DNA of 64,000 nt from an uncultured Bacteroidales bacterium (GTDB taxonomy: Bacteria; Bacteroidota; Bacteroidia; Bacteroidales; Paludibacteraceae). Below are positions 49,940 to 55,360 of this stretch, piece by piece; the first letter of the stretch is position 1; every line of letters starts with the position of its first letter. A program made the position numbers and the translations under genes. The stretch is taken from positions 2,714-66,713 of the forward strand of contig CALCGR010000151.1 in NCBI GenBank assembly GCA_937901025.1. The letters are read 5' to 3'. Under the pieces are notes generated by a model. That model was given only the letters and a program-made list of their open reading frames with translations. It made no database searches and was not told the DNA's origin.

Positions 49940-51073
49940 ATGATTATGAAAAAAATCCTTTTTATCGTACTTTCACTTTCACTTTCCACACTAAGTGCCC
50001 AAGAAAAACCGCTCCTTTGCCCGACTCCCCCTATGGGTTGGTCGTCTTGGAACACGTTTGCTTGCGACATTAACGAAGACCTTATTAAAGCCGTTGCCGA
50101 TGAGATGGTTGCTACCGGACTCAAAGATGCCGGTTATCTCTATGTCAACATAGACGACTGTTGGCACGGACAACGCGATGCCGACGGGTTCATTCAACCC
50201 GACCCAGAACGTTTTCCTTCGGGTATGAAAGCGTTAGCCGACTATGTGCACAGTAAAGGACTGAAGTTAGGTATCTACTCCGATGCCGGAACAGAGACCT
50301 GCGGCGGTCGCCCCGGCAGTTTAGGTCACGAATATCAGGACGCTCTCCAATACGCTCGTTGGGGTATTGATTACCTCAAATATGACTGGTGCAATACGGA
50401 GAATGTGAATCCCAAGGGTGCCTATACGCTGATGTCAAAAGCCCTTCGCGCTACAGGACGGGATATCGTCTTCTCGCTGTGCGAGTGGGGAGATAACAAA
50501 GCCTATGAGTGGGCAGAACCTATTGGTCACCTTTGGCGTACTACAGGGGATGTGGCCTGTCTGTTCGACGGCATAGTAGACCACGGCACGTGGAAATCCT
50601 TAGGTGTGATGCCTATTGTGGATATCAACGAGAAACTGCGCCAATATGCAGGACCCAACCACTGGAACGATCCCGATATGTTGGAGGTCGGCAATGGTAT
50701 GACCCCCGCAGAAGACCGTACCCATTTCTCCCTCTGGTGTATGATGGCTGCACCGCTGATCTTAGGTAACGACATTCGTTCTATGAGTGCCGAGACCCAG
50801 GCGCTCCTCACCAATAAAGCCCTTATCGCCATCGACCAGGACCCGTTGGGCGTACAAGGTTGGCGTGAGAAGACCGAGGACGGGGTAGAGTATTGGATTA
50901 AGCCGTTGCAAAATGATAAAGAGGCTCGCTGCATCGTCAATCGTGGCAACGAACCTAAGATTATTCAACTCGACCAAAAGATTAAACCGATTCTTCCTGT
51001 CTGCAAGAAAGCACAAAAGAAATTTACCCTTGCCCCGCATGATGTAATCGTTTATGTAGAGGATAAACAATGA
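49940..51073 (+). CDS. GH27 alpha-galactosidase
   Basis: PPMGWSSWNTFACDINE, YVNIDDCW, YLKYDWC, LCEWG, PDMLEVGN. Confidence 0.9.
   Translation: MIMKKILFIVLSLSLSTLSAQEKPLLCPTPPMGWSSWNTFACDINEDLIKAVADEMVATGLKDAGYLYVNIDDCWHGQRDADGFIQPDPERFPSGMKALADYVHSKGLKLGIYSDAGTETCGGRPGSLGHEYQDALQYARWGIDYLKYDWCNTENVNPKGAYTLMSKALRATGRDIVFSLCEWGDNKAYEWAEPIGHLWRTTGDVACLFDGIVDHGTWKSLGVMPIVDINEKLRQYAGPNHWNDPDMLEVGNGMTPAEDRTHFSLWCMMAAPLILGNDIRSMSAETQALLTNKALIAIDQDPLGVQGWREKTEDGVEYWIKPLQNDKEARCIVNRGNEPKIIQLDQKIKPILPVCKKAQKKFTLAPHDVIVYVEDKQ
49967..50002. repeat. Array D2 encoding the signal-peptide C-region
   Basis: gtactttcactttcactttccacactaagtgcccaa (VLSLSLSTLSAQ). Compare 46817-46846, gtactttcactttccactttgagtgcccaa (VLSLSTLSAQ). 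Confidence 0.9.
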
Positions 51074-53016
51074 CCCTACTCATTGCTCTGACCACATTAT
51101 TACTCAATGCCGATTGGCGTTTCCATTTGGGTAACGCTGCCGATCCACAAAAGGACTTCGGTTGCGGAACGGAGTATTTCAATTACCTTACCAAAGCGGC
51201 GAGTATTCATAACGAAGGACCCTATGTCCCTTCCTTTAATGACTCCGCTTGGCAGGTGGTACAGATTCCTCACGATTGGGCAACGACCCTGCCTCACGCG
51301 CCCGAAGCCAGCCATAGCCACGGTTACCAAACCATCGGTTATGCCTATCCCGAACATAGTGTAGGGTGGTATCGCAAGATGATTACGCTAGACACGGTGG
51401 ATTATACAATTCCTCATCGCCTTATGTTTGAGGGAATTTTCCGCGATGCGCGCGTGTGGGTCAATGGGTTCTATGTAGGACATAACGAGAGCGGTTACCT
51501 TGGTGCTTCTTATACGATTACCGACTATCTGCACCCGGGCGAAAACCTTATTTGTGTGCGCGTGGATGCAACCCTACAAGAGGGTTGGTTCTACGAAGGT
51601 GCAGGCATCTATCGCAATGTCTATCTAACGATAGGCGACAGACAACAGGCAAAAAAATCTCTCAACTCTCAACTCTCAACTCTCAACTGCACACTTCACG
51701 GAGTGTGTCTCCACCAGGACCACGGCGGGGTAGGGATAGCCGTCCCGAAGGGACTGATGGAGTATCGACTCCGCAAACTCATGGCATTAGGCGTCAACGC
51801 CATTCGCACCGCCCACCATCCTGCCGCCCCCGACTTGTTGGACTTCTGCGACAGTCTCGGTATCTATATCATTGAGGAGAACCGGTTGATGGGCGCCTCC
51901 GAACAGGATTATCTAGCCCTCCAACGGATGATAGAGCGCGATCAGCATCATCCGTCGATCATCCTCTGGAGCATCGGCAATGAGGAATGGGCATTGGAGT
52001 GGAACGGGACAGGCGAACGTATTGCCCGGACGATGACAAACTGGTGTCACGCACTCGATAGGACACGGCTCGTCACCGTCGCCACCTCTTCCGGACCGGA
52101 TATCGTGCGCGGAGTGGATATAGCGGGTTTCAATTACATGAGGCAAAACGACCTTGCCGGTTTCCATGCGACTTATCCCGATCGACTCGCTATCATGACT
52201 GAGGAAACGACCGGCTGCGGTACGCGAGGCGTAGCCACATATAATGATGCTATTGAGAAGGGCTGGCAAAATGTGCTCGATAACGATTGGATACGAGGTA
52301 TCTTTTATTGGACGGGGTTTGACTATAAGGGTGAACCTAATCCTGCCCAATGGCCTTCGGTTAGCAGTTTGTTTGGTGTACTCGATCTGTGCGGGTTTAT
52401 GAAAGATGAAGCGTATTTCTTACAATCCGTTTGGACGGATAAACCGGTGTTACATATTCTTCCGCATTGGAACCTGACAGGACAAGAAGGGGATAGCGTC
52501 ACCGTGTGGGTATATTCGAATATGGACGAGGTTGAACTGCGTGTCAACGGCAAACGACTTGAACGTCAGCCGATGCCCAAGGTAGGACACCTCGAGTGGA
52601 AAACCATCTATCAACCCGGTTCTGTCGAAGCCATCGGTTATAAGAACGGACGCATCGCTAAACGAGAAAAAGTCTATACCGCCGGTCCGGCAACGCAAGT
52701 AAGTCTTGATACGGTCACCTATAGCGGTACCACAATTATGGATATCACTTTGCTTGATAAGAAAGGGCATTTCTGCCCAACCGCTTGCGACTCTGTTCAA
52801 GTGGAGTGGACACAACCCGTCCGCATCTTAGGCTACCATAACGGCAACCCTACTGCCCACCTCCAAATGCCGGACACTAAACACCAAACACTAAACACTA
52901 TAACAATCCCTGCCTTTAATGGCCATGCACAAATCATTTATGAAAATCTTCAATCTTCAATTAGCCCATCGGGTGATTATTCTAACAATATTCTTAGCGC
53001 TCGTATCATGCGCTAA
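51070..53016 (+). CDS. GH2 family glycosidase apparently lacking the Ig-like second domain (possibly degenerate)
   Basis: N-terminal sugar-binding domain (NADWRFHLG, WYRKM, VWVNGFYVGHNESGY, GIYRNVYL) runs within about 23 aa into the TIM barrel (GVCLHQDHGGVG, NAIRTAHHP, WSIGNEE, MTEETTGCGTRG). The last 77 nt overlap the next gene. Confidence 0.65.
   Translation: MTLLIALTTLLLNADWRFHLGNAADPQKDFGCGTEYFNYLTKAASIHNEGPYVPSFNDSAWQVVQIPHDWATTLPHAPEASHSHGYQTIGYAYPEHSVGWYRKMITLDTVDYTIPHRLMFEGIFRDARVWVNGFYVGHNESGYLGASYTITDYLHPGENLICVRVDATLQEGWFYEGAGIYRNVYLTIGDRQQAKKSLNSQLSTLNCTLHGVCLHQDHGGVGIAVPKGLMEYRLRKLMALGVNAIRTAHHPAAPDLLDFCDSLGIYIIEENRLMGASEQDYLALQRMIERDQHHPSIILWSIGNEEWALEWNGTGERIARTMTNWCHALDRTRLVTVATSSGPDIVRGVDIAGFNYMRQNDLAGFHATYPDRLAIMTEETTGCGTRGVATYNDAIEKGWQNVLDNDWIRGIFYWTGFDYKGEPNPAQWPSVSSLFGVLDLCGFMKDEAYFLQSVWTDKPVLHILPHWNLTGQEGDSVTVWVYSNMDEVELRVNGKRLERQPMPKVGHLEWKTIYQPGSVEAIGYKNGRIAKREKVYTAGPATQVSLDTVTYSGTTIMDITLLDKKGHFCPTACDSVQVEWTQPVRILGYHNGNPTAHLQMPDTKHQTLNTITIPAFNGHAQIIYENLQSSISPSGDYSNNILSARIMR
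51658..51687. repeat. Micro-array family B copy B3 (4 perfect CTCTCAA units) at the GH2 domain junction
   Basis: tct ctcaactctcaactctcaactctcaac, read as SLNSQLSTLN. Confidence 0.9.
52874..52901. repeat. Micro-array family E copy E2, in frame near the GH2 C-terminus
   Basis: acactaa acaccaa acactaa acactat, read as DTKHQTLNTI. Confidence 0.85.
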
Positions 53017-55360
53017 GAACGAAGTCACAATTCGCGTTACTAACCCGACTGAGAATGGCCCTAGAATAGTTCGTTTACAAGCCGTGAATGACAACACGAT
53101 TCGTGTTACTTCTACCGCAGAAAATAAACTCCGCGACCGTAAGAGTCTTGTTGTAAAATGCACGATGCACGATGCACGATGCACAGTTCACAATATCGGT
53201 GACACCGTTACCTTGCAAACCGCCACTATGGCGGTGAGCGTTGACCGCACCACCGGTCAAGTATGGGTCACTCGTCACGATGGTAAACTGCTACTCAAAG
53301 AGACAGTGGGTAGTCCTTATTTCACGCCTTATGAGTGTACACAAACGGACGTAAATAATAAAGATATCACTTATAACGGCTGGACGTATGCCGTTACGTT
53401 TGATAACCTCTATAACGAAGAAGGTCTTTTTGGCCTTGGTCAACACCAATCGGACGAATGGAACTGGAAAGGACGCGATGAGGAACTCTATCAGTATAAT
53501 ACGAAGGTTTCGCTCCCGATCATCTTCTCAACCGAAGGTTATGGTCTGATGTTCGACACCTACAGCCTCAGTCGTTGGGGTAATCCCGAACCCTATAAGG
53601 CATTGGAAGACTTGTTTGTAGTGGATACTGTGGCTCGTCGTATAGACGCGAAGACGATTGTTTACGAAGGCACCATCACACCGCATAAGACCGGTGAATA
53701 TCGATTCCTTCATTACTACTCCGGTTACCAACAACTCTTTATTGATGGGCAGCCTTTGAGCCCTACTATTTGGAGGACGGCTTGGAATCCGAATGAGCGT
53801 AAATATCGTTATTACATGGAAGAGGGATGTAATTATCATATCCGTCTTACGTGGCAACCCGATGGCGATGTAGCTTATTGCTCTCTTACCGCCCATGCGC
53901 CTGAGACACCTGAGACGCACCAACAACTACGGTTTTGGTCGGAGATGAACCCCAACCTCGACTACTATGTCTTTGCGGGCGAGAATATGGATAGTCTTAT
54001 TCACTCTTACCGTAAGCTCACAGGTAAAGCGACCCTCATGCCTGATTGGGTATTAGGCTACTGGCAGTCGCGTGAACGCTATAAGACCCAAGACGAAATC
54101 GTTGATGCTCTGCGCGGCTTCCATTCACGTAATCTGCCCATTGATAATATCGTCATGGACTGGAACTATTGGGAGCCTTCGCAATGGGGCGCTTTCACAT
54201 TTGAGGATTCTCGTTTCCCTAACCCGCAAGCCATGATTGATACCATTCATGCTTTGGGTGCTCATATAATGATCTCTTGCTGGCCTAAGTATTATCCGTT
54301 CACGGACCACTACCAAGAGATGTTTGCCAAAGGCTGGTTATATCCTCAATCGATTCGCGACTCGCTCATCGATTGGCTCGGGTTCCCGTATGCTTTCTAT
54401 GATGCCTACAATCCGAAAGCCGGCAGACTCTTTTTTGAACAACTATGGGAGCACCTTGGCACGATGGGTATTGACGCGTGGTGGATGGACGCTTCCGAAC
54501 CGAACATCAAAGACTGCACACCTATCGACTATCGCAAAGCCCTTTGCGGACCGACTTATCTCGGTTCATCGGACGAGTATTTTAATGCATATGCTTTGGT
54601 GAATGCGCAGTCTATATACGAAGGTTTGCAACGCAAAGGCGTACAGGATATTTTTCAACTCACTCGTAATGGTTTTCTTGGACAACAACGCTATTCCACC
54701 GCTACTTGGTCGGGCGATATCGGTACGCGTTGGGAAGACATGAAAGCGCAGATTACCGCCGGACAGAACTTCTCCGTGTCTGGTCTTCCATGGTGGAGTC
54801 AAGATATTGGTGGTTTCTCGGTAGAGAATCGTTATGCTGCGGCGCAATACGCTTTTGATGCTACCGGTATAGAGAATGCAGACCTTCAAGAGTGGCGCGA
54901 ACTCAATGTTCGTTGGCACCAATGGGGTGTGTTCACACCTATTTATCGTAGTCACGGACAGTTCCCCTATCGCGAGCCATGGAATATCGCTCCAGAAGGA
55001 CATCGCGCATACAAGGCAATAACTGCATGCCTCAACGAACGTTATAAACTGATGCCGTATCTAAAAGAGATGAATCGCCGTGTTAGCGAAGAGGATTACA
55101 CTATCATGCGACCTCTCGCTATGGACTATCCTACAGACCCCAAAGCTGTGAACTGCGGTTGGCAGTATATGTTTGGACCCGATATTATGGTTTGCCCGGT
55201 CTATAAGTATGGCGCTCGTGAGTGGAGCGTCTATTTTCCTGCCGGCACATGGTACGATTACTATACCGGAGAACTCGTTTCTAAGGGCAATGAGACACGT
55301 ATTGTTCCTGCCCCCTATGACCATAGCCCGATCTTTTTAAGAAATAAACAACAACTATAA
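52940..55360 (+). CDS. GH31 family glycosidase (alpha-xylosidase/alpha-glucosidase type, lipoprotein)
   Basis: Lipobox LALVSC. GIDAWWMDASEPN, TRNGFLGQQRYSTATWSGDI, PWWSQDIGGF, YRSHG. Start chosen at ATG 52940 (MKIFNLQL..). The ORF track starts at 52919. Confidence 0.8.
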   Translation: MKIFNLQLAHRVIILTIFLALVSCAKNEVTIRVTNPTENGPRIVRLQAVNDNTIRVTSTAENKLRDRKSLVVKCTMHDARCTVHNIGDTVTLQTATMAVSVDRTTGQVWVTRHDGKLLLKETVGSPYFTPYECTQTDVNNKDITYNGWTYAVTFDNLYNEEGLFGLGQHQSDEWNWKGRDEELYQYNTKVSLPIIFSTEGYGLMFDTYSLSRWGNPEPYKALEDLFVVDTVARRIDAKTIVYEGTITPHKTGEYRFLHYYSGYQQLFIDGQPLSPTIWRTAWNPNERKYRYYMEEGCNYHIRLTWQPDGDVAYCSLTAHAPETPETHQQLRFWSEMNPNLDYYVFAGENMDSLIHSYRKLTGKATLMPDWVLGYWQSRERYKTQDEIVDALRGFHSRNLPIDNIVMDWNYWEPSQWGAFTFEDSRFPNPQAMIDTIHALGAHIMISCWPKYYPFTDHYQEMFAKGWLYPQSIRDSLIDWLGFPYAFYDAYNPKAGRLFFEQLWEHLGTMGIDAWWMDASEPNIKDCTPIDYRKALCGPTYLGSSDEYFNAYALVNAQSIYEGLQRKGVQDIFQLTRNGFLGQQRYSTATWSGDIGTRWEDMKAQITAGQNFSVSGLPWWSQDIGGFSVENRYAAAQYAFDATGIENADLQEWRELNVRWHQWGVFTPIYRSHGQFPYREPWNIAPEGHRAYKAITACLNERYKLMPYLKEMNRRVSEEDYTIMRPLAMDYPTDPKAVNCGWQYMFGPDIMVCPVYKYGAREWSVYFPAGTWYDYYTGELVSKGNETRIVPAPYDHSPIFLRNKQQL
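52944..52965. repeat. Heptamer array (AATCTTC x2-3) at the GH31 start
   Basis: aaatctt caatctt caattag encodes the first residues KIFNLQL. The same bases are read in another frame as the GH2 tail. Confidence 0.7.
53161..53195. repeat. Micro-array family C copy C5 (reverse orientation), in frame in GH31
   Basis: cacgatg cacgatg cacgatg cacagtt cacaata, read as (M)HDARCTVHNI. Confidence 0.9.

What the first reader, a model, noticed from the sequence alone, without database searches (positions are those of the whole stretch)
51600..53016. GH2 gene: heptamer array B3 sits exactly where an entire Ig-like domain appears to be missing, and the 3' end runs 77 nt into the next gene
About 23 residues separate the end of the sugar-binding domain (..GAGIYRNVYLT) from the start of the TIM barrel (GVCLHQDHGGVGIAVP..NAIRTAHHP). 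Ten of them (SLNSQLSTLN) are array B3. Characterised GH2 enzymes such as E. coli GusA and LacZ have an immunoglobulin-like beta-sandwich of roughly 90-110 aa at this position. The C-terminal region also contains array E2 (52874-52901). The ORF ends only at 53016, inside the signal-peptide coding region of the GH31 gene (start 52940), over yet another heptamer array (52944-52965) that is read in two frames. Either the array marks a deletion junction, which would link the arrays to a repair or recombination process, or the gene is decaying.
Basis: partly seen in the sequence, partly recalled or inferred. Interest (0 to 1): 0.6.

Follow-up and report, generated by a model that had tools for sequence, protein, structure and literature searches.

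The report
Working GH2 enzyme lacking Ig domain
This sugar-cleaving enzyme gene really does lack one of the standard domains of its family, but that loss is ancient and shared by many repeat-free relatives; the gene is intact and under strong selection, and the 7-base repeats only fill three loops that tolerate any sequence.

Summary
The ORF at 51070-53016 (648 aa) has GH2_N, the GH2 TIM barrel and DUF4982, but no Ig-like domain (PF00703). A perfect 4.3-copy heptamer array lies in the 23-residue linker. A second array lies in the C-terminal domain. The ORF runs 77-98 nt into the GH31 gene.

The interpretation mostly fails.
- About 700-aa Bacteroidales homologues without arrays (50-62% identity) lack the same domain. 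On a 168-sequence tree the Ig-less proteins fall on one side of one branch, which fits a single old loss.
- The gene is not decaying. dN/dS is 0.04-0.10 across seven orthologues, both catalytic Glu are present, and the AlphaFold model is confident (pLDDT 82, pTM 0.87).
- In about 20 close Paludibacteraceae relatives, all length variation sits in three slots: the linker, a C5 loop and the tail. These slots hold different 7- or 16-nt arrays, always in frame, with dN/dS near 1.
- In the 12 relatives whose DNA was read, the stop is the same TAA just after the GH31 lipobox Cys. The frame stays open because hydrophobic signal-peptide codons cannot form stops in that register.

Earlier follow-ups on this window already described the genome-wide arrays. 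The Ig-less GH2 architecture had not been noted.

The parts
51070..53016 (+). GH2 coding sequence, 648 aa. The start ATG overlaps the GH27 stop (ATGA).
   Evidence: The ORF is intact in 13 related loci.
51103..51627 (+). GH2 N-terminal sugar-binding jelly-roll (residues 12-186)
   Evidence: Pfam PF02837, E=1e-18. AF2 pLDDT is mostly 85-94.
51628..51696 (+). Interdomain linker (residues 187-209), at the position where other GH2 enzymes carry the ~110-120-residue Ig-like domain
   Evidence: The linker is typically 32 residues in Ig-less relatives and 135-140 in Ig-bearing ones. dN/dS is about 1.
51634..51657 (+). Degenerate remnant of a GGCGACA heptamer array, seeded on the native Gly-Asp codons of the conserved 'IGD' linker motif
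   Evidence: The same position carries GGCGACA x18 in L014 and x2-3 in L012. 'V/IGD' is also present in array-free relatives.
51659..51688 (+). Array B3: CTCAACT-type heptamer, 4.3 perfect copies, read as SLNSQLSTLN
   Evidence: AF2 pLDDT is below 50 for residues 192-200. The opposite strand contains TGA stops, so only this orientation can be read.
51691..52479 (+). GH2 TIM-barrel catalytic domain (residues 208 to about 470). The acid/base Glu305 is at 51982-51984 and the nucleophile Glu378 at 52201-52203.
   Evidence: Pfam PF02836, E=5.8e-26. NEE and TEE are invariant in 86 homologues. The alignment to 3gm8 agrees.
52228..52248 (+). Shortened loop after the nucleophile (VATYNDA). About 20 residues present in all other family members are missing here, and no array is involved.
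   Evidence: AF2 pLDDT is below 50 for residues 380-392.
52489..52653 (+). DUF4982 domain (residues 474-528)
   Evidence: Pfam PF16355, E=1.3e-18.
52738..52944 (+). C-terminal beta-sandwich (GH2 C5-like), up to the last conserved residues FNGHAQIIYE
   Evidence: Pfam PF18565 scores 28.1 bits, below the cutoff of 32. AF2 predicts strands at 543-626.
52874..52905 (+). Array E2: ACACTAA heptamer, 4.4 copies, in a loop of the C5 domain (DTKHQTLNT)
   Evidence: The same slot holds ATCCACA, ATCACCC and other arrays in orthologues.
52940..53016 (+). Region read in two frames: the unconstrained GH2 tail (NLQSSISPSGDYSNNILSARIMR) and the GH31 lipoprotein signal peptide (MKIFNLQLAHRVIILTIFLALVSC). It includes the AATCTTC mini-array at 52945-52961.
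   Evidence: The stop TAA lies in GH31 'C-A-K' in 13 loci. Tail dN/dS is about 1.
52919..55360 (+). Downstream GH31 gene (start at 52919, 52925 or 52940)
   Evidence: Pfam PF01055, PF21365 and PF13802.

Best explanation
This is a functional, streamlined GH2 glycosidase, most likely a beta-galactosidase working on hemicellulose side chains. The substrate is inferred.

It belongs to a so far undescribed branch of GH2. In that branch the Ig-like second domain was lost once, long ago, and replaced by a short linker that joins the sugar-binding domain directly to the TIM barrel.

In one Paludibacteraceae lineage, genomes are full of 7- and 8-nt tandem arrays. There, three parts of the protein that tolerate arbitrary sequence have become array slots: the linker, one loop of the last beta-sandwich, and the C-terminal tail. 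Arrays arise in these slots, in at least one case from native codons (GGCGACA from the Gly-Asp of the linker). They expand, are replaced wholesale between strains, and persist only on the strand and at lengths that keep the frame open.

The long 3' overlap arose because this lineage lost the native C-terminal strand and stop codon. Translation now runs on until the first stop in that frame. That stop cannot occur inside the hydrophobic GH31 signal peptide: a stop needs a GH31 codon ending in T followed by one starting AA, AG or GA, meaning K, N, S, R, D or E. It therefore falls just after the lipobox Cys.

Shown: the missing domain, its age, the selection on the gene, the slot variability and the conserved stop. 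Inferred: the substrate, how arrays turn over, and whether the tail is inert.
For: Missing domain: Pfam finds no PF00703, and every solved GH2 relative has about 120 extra residues at this point.

Age of the loss: 104 of the 120 best homologue clusters lack PF00703 and are 634-749 aa long. Array-free proteins such as P0042, P0046, P0016 and P0019 share the junction. Ig-less sequences need only one state change on trees of 86 and 168 sequences, the larger one rooted on Ig-bearing proteobacterial proteins (support 78 and 87).

Function: dN/dS is 0.04-0.10 over seven orthologues with dS of 0.7-3. N304-E305 and T377-E378 are invariant. AF2 gives pLDDT 82 and pTM 0.87 for the query, and 84 and 0.88 for array-free P0042. 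Foldseek query-normalised TM-scores (TMq) are 0.77-0.80 to GH2 beta-galactosidases 3gm8, 4ypj, 5t99 and 4cuc.

Slots: in 20 relatives at >=80% identity, all length variation lies in three places, and the content is replaced even within >=90% identity clusters. The DNA at these places is tandem arrays of differing units. dN/dS there is about 1, and AF2 confidence is low at 192-200 and 629-636.

Overlap: the same TAA is used in 13 loci, and the GH31 ATGs lie inside the GHAQIIYE codons.

Genome habit: 204 period-7 and 146 period-8 arrays in 1.76 Mb, against 2-30 for periods 3-6.

Context: carboxylesterase, GH27, GH2, GH31, GH5, with conserved gene order.
Against: The N-terminal leader is only about 14 residues and lacks a basic residue in this strain, so export is uncertain.

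The clade sits on a long stem branch (0.46) and has lost a ~20-residue loop next to the nucleophile. Activity or specificity may therefore differ from that of relatives.

Tree support for a single loss is moderate (78 and 87, FastTree local support). No AU test was run.

AF2 predicts the last seven tail residues (ILSARIM) as a beta-strand at pLDDT of about 85. The tail may therefore not be inert.
Confidence: 0.8

Rival explanations
1. The linker array is the repair or recombination scar of the event that deleted the Ig-like domain.
For: The array lies exactly at the junction between GH2_N and the TIM barrel. Compared with the sister P0019, a further ~20 residues are missing at this same spot.
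Against: The same domain-less junction exists in many array-free homologues at 50-62% identity, which keep a conserved V/IGD linker and hairpin. The loss maps to one old branch. Arrays at this site differ between strains and are much younger than the deletion.
Confidence: 0.03
2. The gene is a decaying pseudogene that has lost domains, its stop codon and parts of loops.
For: It has a shortened linker, a shortened active-site loop, a lost C-terminal strand, a weak C5 Pfam score and a long stem branch.
Against: dN/dS is 0.04-0.10 with saturated dS. The ORF is intact in 13 loci from different species-level lineages. The catalytic residues are invariant and the AF2 fold is confident.
Confidence: 0.03
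3. The perfect 4-copy heptamer in the linker is a contingency locus. Slippage by one unit shifts the frame and switches the enzyme off and on (phase variation).
For: The unit length is not a multiple of 3, the array has four perfect copies, and the lineage is rich in such arrays.
Against: None of 13 loci, nor the ~20 related proteins, is out of frame at any slot, although most of these were found through intact gene calls. Most orthologous arrays are degenerate rather than perfect. Four copies is a short tract for efficient slippage. The arrays also sit in housekeeping genes, according to earlier follow-ups.
Confidence: 0.1
4. The C-terminal tail is functional. Its last residues (L-x-A-R-phi-phi) supply the final beta-strand of the C5 sandwich, so 52990-53013 is true dual coding under selection in both frames.
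For: AF2 places a strand at residues 641-647 with pLDDT of about 85. The tail ends resemble native C-termini of relatives, for example P0013 'VSATLVP' against 'ISARLVP'. The pattern alternates hydrophobic and polar residues.
Against: With the lipobox L-V-S-C fixed in the GH31 frame, the genetic code forces x-(R/C)-(I/L/V)-(M/L/V) in the GH2 frame. GH31-synonymous changes freely alter the GH2 residues. Tail dN/dS is about 1. AF2 may be led by the alignment.
Confidence: 0.25

Closest known systems
GH2 'domain architecture type 5' beta-galactosidases (GH2N + GH2d + GH2C + DUF4982 + C-terminal domains; Talens-Perales et al. 2016, PMC5145203), for example PDB 3gm8, 4ypj, 5t98/5t99 and 4cu6
   Same: The sugar-binding domain, the TIM barrel with NE acid/base and TE nucleophile, DUF4982 and the C-terminal sandwich are shared. 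Sequence E-values to the five closest (3gm8, 5t98, 4ypj, 7cwd, 8q2h) are 3e-89 to 2e-73, and Foldseek query-normalised TM-scores (TMq) are 0.77-0.80.
   Different: The Ig-like domain GH2d (PF00703) is entirely absent. That paper states that all five GH2 architectures have two N-terminal beta-sandwiches. This clade additionally lacks the pre-barrel hairpin, a loop after the nucleophile and one C-terminal strand.
Array-free Ig-less GH2 proteins of Bacteroidales (about 700 aa, annotated only as 'DUF4982 domain-containing protein'; e.g. P0042, P0046, P0062)
   Same: They have the same domain-less junction and the same domain order, at 50-53% identity over 97-100% of the query. They fall in the same clade.
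   Different: They keep the 32-residue linker with its hairpin, the full active-site loop, three terminal strands, a normal signal peptide and their own stop codon. They have no tandem arrays.
Long simple sequence repeats of 5-11 nt in bacterial genomes (Mrazek et al. 2007, as summarised in PMC4679880) and TAACTGA heptamer direct repeats of Beggiatoaceae, Cyanobacteria and some Bacteroidetes (PMC4679880)
   Same: There is a genome-wide excess of heptamer tandem arrays of a few copies, recurring unit families, and no associated mobile element.
   Different: The TAACTGA repeats are mostly intergenic and lie just upstream of start codons. Here many unit families exist and a majority lie inside ORFs and are translated. 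In this gene they occupy fixed slots whose content turns over between strains.
Coding-repeat contingency loci (e.g. the Neisseria opa CTCTT repeats)
   Same: A tandem repeat with a unit length that is not a multiple of 3 lies inside a coding sequence.
   Different: No out-of-frame allele was seen in 13 loci. The arrays are short and mostly degenerate. No on/off evidence exists.

Membership tests
Glycoside hydrolase family 2 (CAZy GH2) | (beta/alpha)8 catalytic domain of the GH2 type | tested here: met
   PF02836, E=5.8e-26, 91.8 bits against a cutoff of 21. The AF2 barrel and Foldseek hits agree.
Glycoside hydrolase family 2 (CAZy GH2) | Acid/base Glu in the N-E motif and nucleophile Glu about 70-90 residues later | tested here: met
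   N304-E305 and T377-E378 are invariant in 86 homologues and align to the NE and TE of 3gm8.
Glycoside hydrolase family 2 (CAZy GH2) | N-terminal sugar-binding jelly-roll domain | tested here: met
   PF02837, E=1e-18.
Canonical GH2 architecture (types 1-5 of PMC5145203) | A second, Ig-like beta-sandwich (PF00703) between the sugar-binding domain and the barrel | tested here: not met
   No PF00703 hit at E<=0.1. About 120 residues are absent compared with 3gm8. The AF2 model goes from strand 184-188 to barrel strand 209-214.
GH2 type 5 (DUF4982-bearing beta-galactosidases) | DUF4982 after the barrel, plus C-terminal beta-sandwich domain(s) | tested here: met
   PF16355, E=1.3e-18. The C5 domain scores below threshold (28.1 against 32 bits), but the sandwich is modelled.
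Pseudogene | Frameshifts or stops, or relaxed selection (dN/dS approaching 1) over the whole gene | tested here: not met
   The ORF is intact in 13 loci, and dN/dS is 0.04-0.10.
Phase-variable contingency gene | Repeat copy number varies within populations and shifts the reading frame | not testable with these tools
Indirectly, no out-of-frame allele was seen among related loci.
Bacterial long simple sequence repeats (5-11 nt units) | Tandem arrays of 5-11-nt units in genome-wide excess | tested here: met
   204 period-7 and 146 period-8 arrays of >=3 copies in 1.76 Mb, against 2, 4, 3 and 30 for periods 3-6.

The most novel reading that the evidence does not exclude
GH2 enzymes can work without the Ig-like second domain, which is regarded as universal in the family. 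A whole gut and rumen Bacteroidales clade has joined the sugar-binding domain directly to the barrel. In one lineage the resulting linker and two other permissive sites have become fixed slots, where short tandem arrays are continually rewritten and exchanged. One 16-nt unit family appears in the linker slot of some strains and in the tail/signal-peptide slot of another. This would be a natural experiment in repeat-driven loop evolution, and it includes a stretch read in two frames.
Probability: 0.5. Interest if true: 0.5.

Novelty: new variant of a known kind. Interest (0 to 1): 0.35.

Why it matters
It corrects an attractive but wrong link between repeat arrays and a domain deletion, and it shows the gene is a working enzyme.

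It also brings out two things worth recording. First, there is a large GH2 branch without the Ig-like domain. It is unannotated and has no solved structure, and it contradicts the published statement that all GH2 architectures have two N-terminal beta-sandwiches. That bears on how GH2 enzymes fold, how they form oligomers, and how they are annotated in gut and rumen metagenomes. Second, it gives a clean gene-level picture of how genome-wide tandem arrays are accommodated. They occupy a few fixed, unconstrained slots whose content turns over far faster than point substitutions. A 77-98-nt gene overlap is explained by codon arithmetic and needs no selection.

Tried and rejected
No RNA evidence and no read-level test of array length variation could be obtained.
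- Same-genus species representatives carry no orthologue. The best hit was 38% identity. Orthologues had to come from protein-identity look-ups and pattern scans instead.
- A literature search for a described Ig-less GH2 returned nothing relevant. This shows absence from that library, not that it is undescribed.
- An earlier-findings search for a similar GH2 returned nothing relevant.
- I looked for shared flanks around the six CTCAACT arrays of the genome, to test for a larger mobile element. The flanks are unrelated.
- I considered that the tail's conservation (L-x-A-R-phi-phi) shows selection on GH2. I rejected it as evidence, because the fixed GH31 lipobox L-V-S-C forces that pattern in the other frame.
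- The more distant Ig-less relatives P0019 and P0015 lie in other gene neighbourhoods. They could not show the ancestral GH2-GH31 junction.
Linker span and tail contacts could not be measured.
Full report
**The observation**

The ORF at 51070-53016 (+) encodes 648 residues. Pfam finds Glyco_hydro_2_N at residues 12-186, the GH2 TIM barrel at 208-369 (entering the profile at position 16), DUF4982 at 474-528 and a sub-threshold C5 domain at 557-609. It finds no Ig-like Glyco_hydro_2 domain (PF00703), even at E<=0.1. All solved relatives carry about 120 extra residues at this point; query residues 190->202 correspond to 3gm8 residues 160->281.

Tandem Repeats Finder confirms three arrays: a perfect 4.3-copy heptamer at 51659-51688, read as SLNSQLSTLN at residues 197-206; a 4.4-copy ACACTAA array at 52874-52905; and a 2.4-copy AATCTTC mini-array at 52945-52961. 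The downstream GH31 ORF opens at 52919 and has further ATGs at 52925 and 52940, so the overlap is 77-98 nt.

**The missing domain is old and has nothing to do with the arrays**

A search of 5.8 billion proteins gave thousands of homologues. Of the 120 best clusters, 104 are 634-749 aa long and lack PF00703 in the precomputed annotation, yet cover 95-100% of the query at 50-88% identity. Sixteen clusters of 789-833 aa have the domain and align in two pieces.

In the alignment, array-free proteins such as P0042, P0062, P0046 and P0093 go from '...GAGIYRHVWLT' through a short 'V/IGD...' linker and a hairpin ('IEIDPDRGIVIDGKVIRLHG') straight into the barrel. The 810-aa proteins have about 108 more residues there.

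On a tree of 86 homologues built without the linker columns, presence or absence of the domain needs a single change (local support 78). I then added 151 ORFs from genome and metagenome loci, including Ig-bearing Prevotella, Asticcacaulis and Duganella proteins used for rooting. The 17 Ig-less sequences again lie on one side of one branch (support 87). This fits one ancient loss, but support is moderate and no AU test was run.

A published survey of GH2 states that all five known architectures have two N-terminal beta-sandwiches (PMC5145203). No PDB entry lacks the domain. AlphaFold models fold confidently without it, both for the query (pLDDT 82, pTM 0.87) and for array-free P0042 (pLDDT 84, pTM 0.88). 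The query model superposes on GH2 beta-galactosidases at a query-normalised TM-score (TMq) of 0.77-0.80.

**The gene is not decaying**

I recovered orthologous DNA from six other assemblies. Downstream gene order (GH2, then GH31, GH5 and GH115 where the contig reaches) is the same wherever the sequence extends. GH27 precedes GH2 in most, but L012 has a GH130 gene there instead. Pairwise dN/dS over the gene is 0.04-0.10, and dS is 0.7-3, largely saturated. The acid/base pair N304-E305 and the nucleophile T377-E378 are invariant in 86 homologues and match 3gm8.

Six more loci found by a translated-DNA (tblastn) scan were checked, one of them the same contig as L012. The five new Paludibacteraceae or Bacteroidales MAGs, from human and horse gut, all have an intact ORF.

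**What the arrays are doing**

The query belongs to a tight clade (100% support, stem branch 0.46). Compared with its sister P0019 and the other Ig-less proteins, this clade has three further reductions:
- loss of the pre-barrel hairpin;
- loss of about 20 residues after the nucleophile ('YYTD..GHMAAINR..' becomes 'ATYND'), with no array involved;
- loss of the native C-terminal strand(s) and stop codon.

In an alignment of 20 close relatives (>=80% identity), essentially all length variation sits in three slots: the linker, a loop in the C5 sandwich, and the tail. The rest is nearly invariant. Even inside >=90% identity clusters the slot content is replaced wholesale, for example P0003 against P0125 and P0005 against P0127.

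At the DNA level the linker slot differs from strain to strain:
- window: a GGCGACA remnant followed by CTCAACT x4;
- L014: GGCGACA/GGCAACA x18;
- L015: AACTCTA/CACTCTC x10;
- six loci: a 16-mer, AGCGGTCTTTCAGCGA, x3-4;
- others: mixtures of these.

GGCGACA starts on the native Gly-Asp codons of the conserved 'IGD' motif, so at least that array arose in place. The motif '(L)ST(L/F)N(S/C)(P/T)L(R/H)G' at the 3' end of the linker is shared by most relatives, so a CTCAACT-type array is old at this site. The 16-mer family also appears in the tail/signal-peptide slot of L014, which suggests copying between slots.

In the slots, dN/dS is about 1 and AF2 confidence drops: residues 192-200 and 629-636 are below 50. 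Flanks of the six CTCAACT arrays in the genome are unrelated, so no larger mobile element is involved.

The genome has 204 period-7 and 146 period-8 arrays of >=3 copies in 1.76 Mb, against 2-30 for periods 3-6. The most common size is four copies. This agrees with earlier follow-ups on this window, and with the known class of long simple sequence repeats and heptamer direct repeats (PMC4679880).

A heptamer array read in frame always gives the same cyclic 7-residue peptide on a given strand. The reverse strand of CTCAACT contains TGA. The recurring 'SLNSQLSTLN' therefore reflects only strand compatibility.

The linker left by the ancient domain loss is one of the most permissive sites in the protein, alongside the C5 loop and the tail. 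Arrays survive where any peptide is tolerated.

**The 3' overlap**

In all 13 loci, GH2 ends at the same TAA, formed by GH31 codons 'GCT AAG' or 'CAT AAG' immediately after the lipobox Cys (...LVSC-A/H-K-N-E). The GH31 ATGs lie inside the GH2 codons for GHAQIIYE.

In this register, a GH2 stop needs a GH31 codon ending in T followed by one beginning AA, AG or GA. Such codons encode K, N, S, R, D or E, which a hydrophobic signal peptide does not contain. The GH31 frame also forces every indel to be a multiple of three. The GH2 frame therefore stays open and ends at the same place without any selection on GH2.

The more distant Ig-less relatives end with their own strand and stop, and lie in other neighbourhoods. 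The overlap is therefore a clade-specific result of losing the native 3' end.

One caveat remains. AF2 models the last seven residues (ILSARIM) as a strand at pLDDT of about 85. This could mean the tail substitutes for the lost strand. However, the fixed lipobox L-V-S-C forces the pattern x-(R/C)-(I/L/V)-(M/L/V) in the GH2 frame, so the resemblance is not evidence of selection.

**Function and context**

The neighbours are a carboxylesterase, a GH27 alpha-galactosidase, a GH31 enzyme and a GH5 enzyme, followed by GH115 in relatives. The closest characterised structures are beta-galactosidases. A beta-galactosidase acting on hemicellulose side chains is the likeliest role, but this is inference. 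The N-terminal leader is unusually short (MTLLIALTTLLLNA), so export is uncertain.

**Limits**

The phase-variation rival therefore rests only on the absence of out-of-frame alleles among related loci. Most of these were found through intact gene calls; the six from the translated-DNA scan were not.

**Verdict**

This is a functional member of an undescribed Ig-less GH2 branch, with three repeat-filled permissive slots and a gene overlap explained by codon arithmetic.

Noticed in passing
window 53158-53184 (GH31 gene); same position in L011-L016: The GH31 gene has its own array slot after the conserved 'RDRKSLV'. The window carries ATGCACG x3.9 (CTMHDARCTVH). Orthologues carry ACCAAAC, AACTATC, ACTCTAA or other units at the same place, always in frame.
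   Followed up: partly
window 52830-53350 compared with L013: The last ~200 nt of GH2 plus the first ~330 nt of GH31 are identical to L013 except for one base. The rest of GH2 is only 75-92% identical, and the linker arrays differ. This points to a recent recombination mosaic between lineages.
   Followed up: partly
L014 5966-6021 compared with L013 1870-1930, L016 4118-4178, L099, L101, L103, L104: The same 16-nt unit family (AGCGGTCTTTCAGCGA) fills the GH2 linker slot in six strains, and the GH2-tail/GH31-signal-peptide slot in another. This suggests arrays are copied between slots.
   Followed up: partly
L017 5024-5065: The sister Ig-less GH2 (P0019, 742 aa, different neighbourhood) has a CTCTGCA x6 array in its signal-peptide coding region. 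Two more heptamer arrays lie nearby, so the array habit extends beyond the query's clade.
   Followed up: no
G000 contig C57:15466-17751: The same genome also encodes a canonical-length GH2 (818-aa open frame), which matches the query at 29-48% identity in four separate pieces. The Ig-less enzyme is therefore not the only GH2 in the genome.
   Followed up: no
window 51070-51073: The GH2 start ATG overlaps the GH27 stop (ATGA). The GH2 leader is only about 14 residues and has no basic residue in this strain, whereas relatives have MR.../MH....
   Followed up: no
whole genome G000: Of the 7- and 8-nt arrays, about 60% lie fully inside ORFs of >=100 aa, although such ORFs cover about 87% of the genome. 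They are spread evenly along ORFs. Four copies is the most common size: 88 of 204 heptamer arrays and 108 of 146 octamer arrays.
   Followed up: partly
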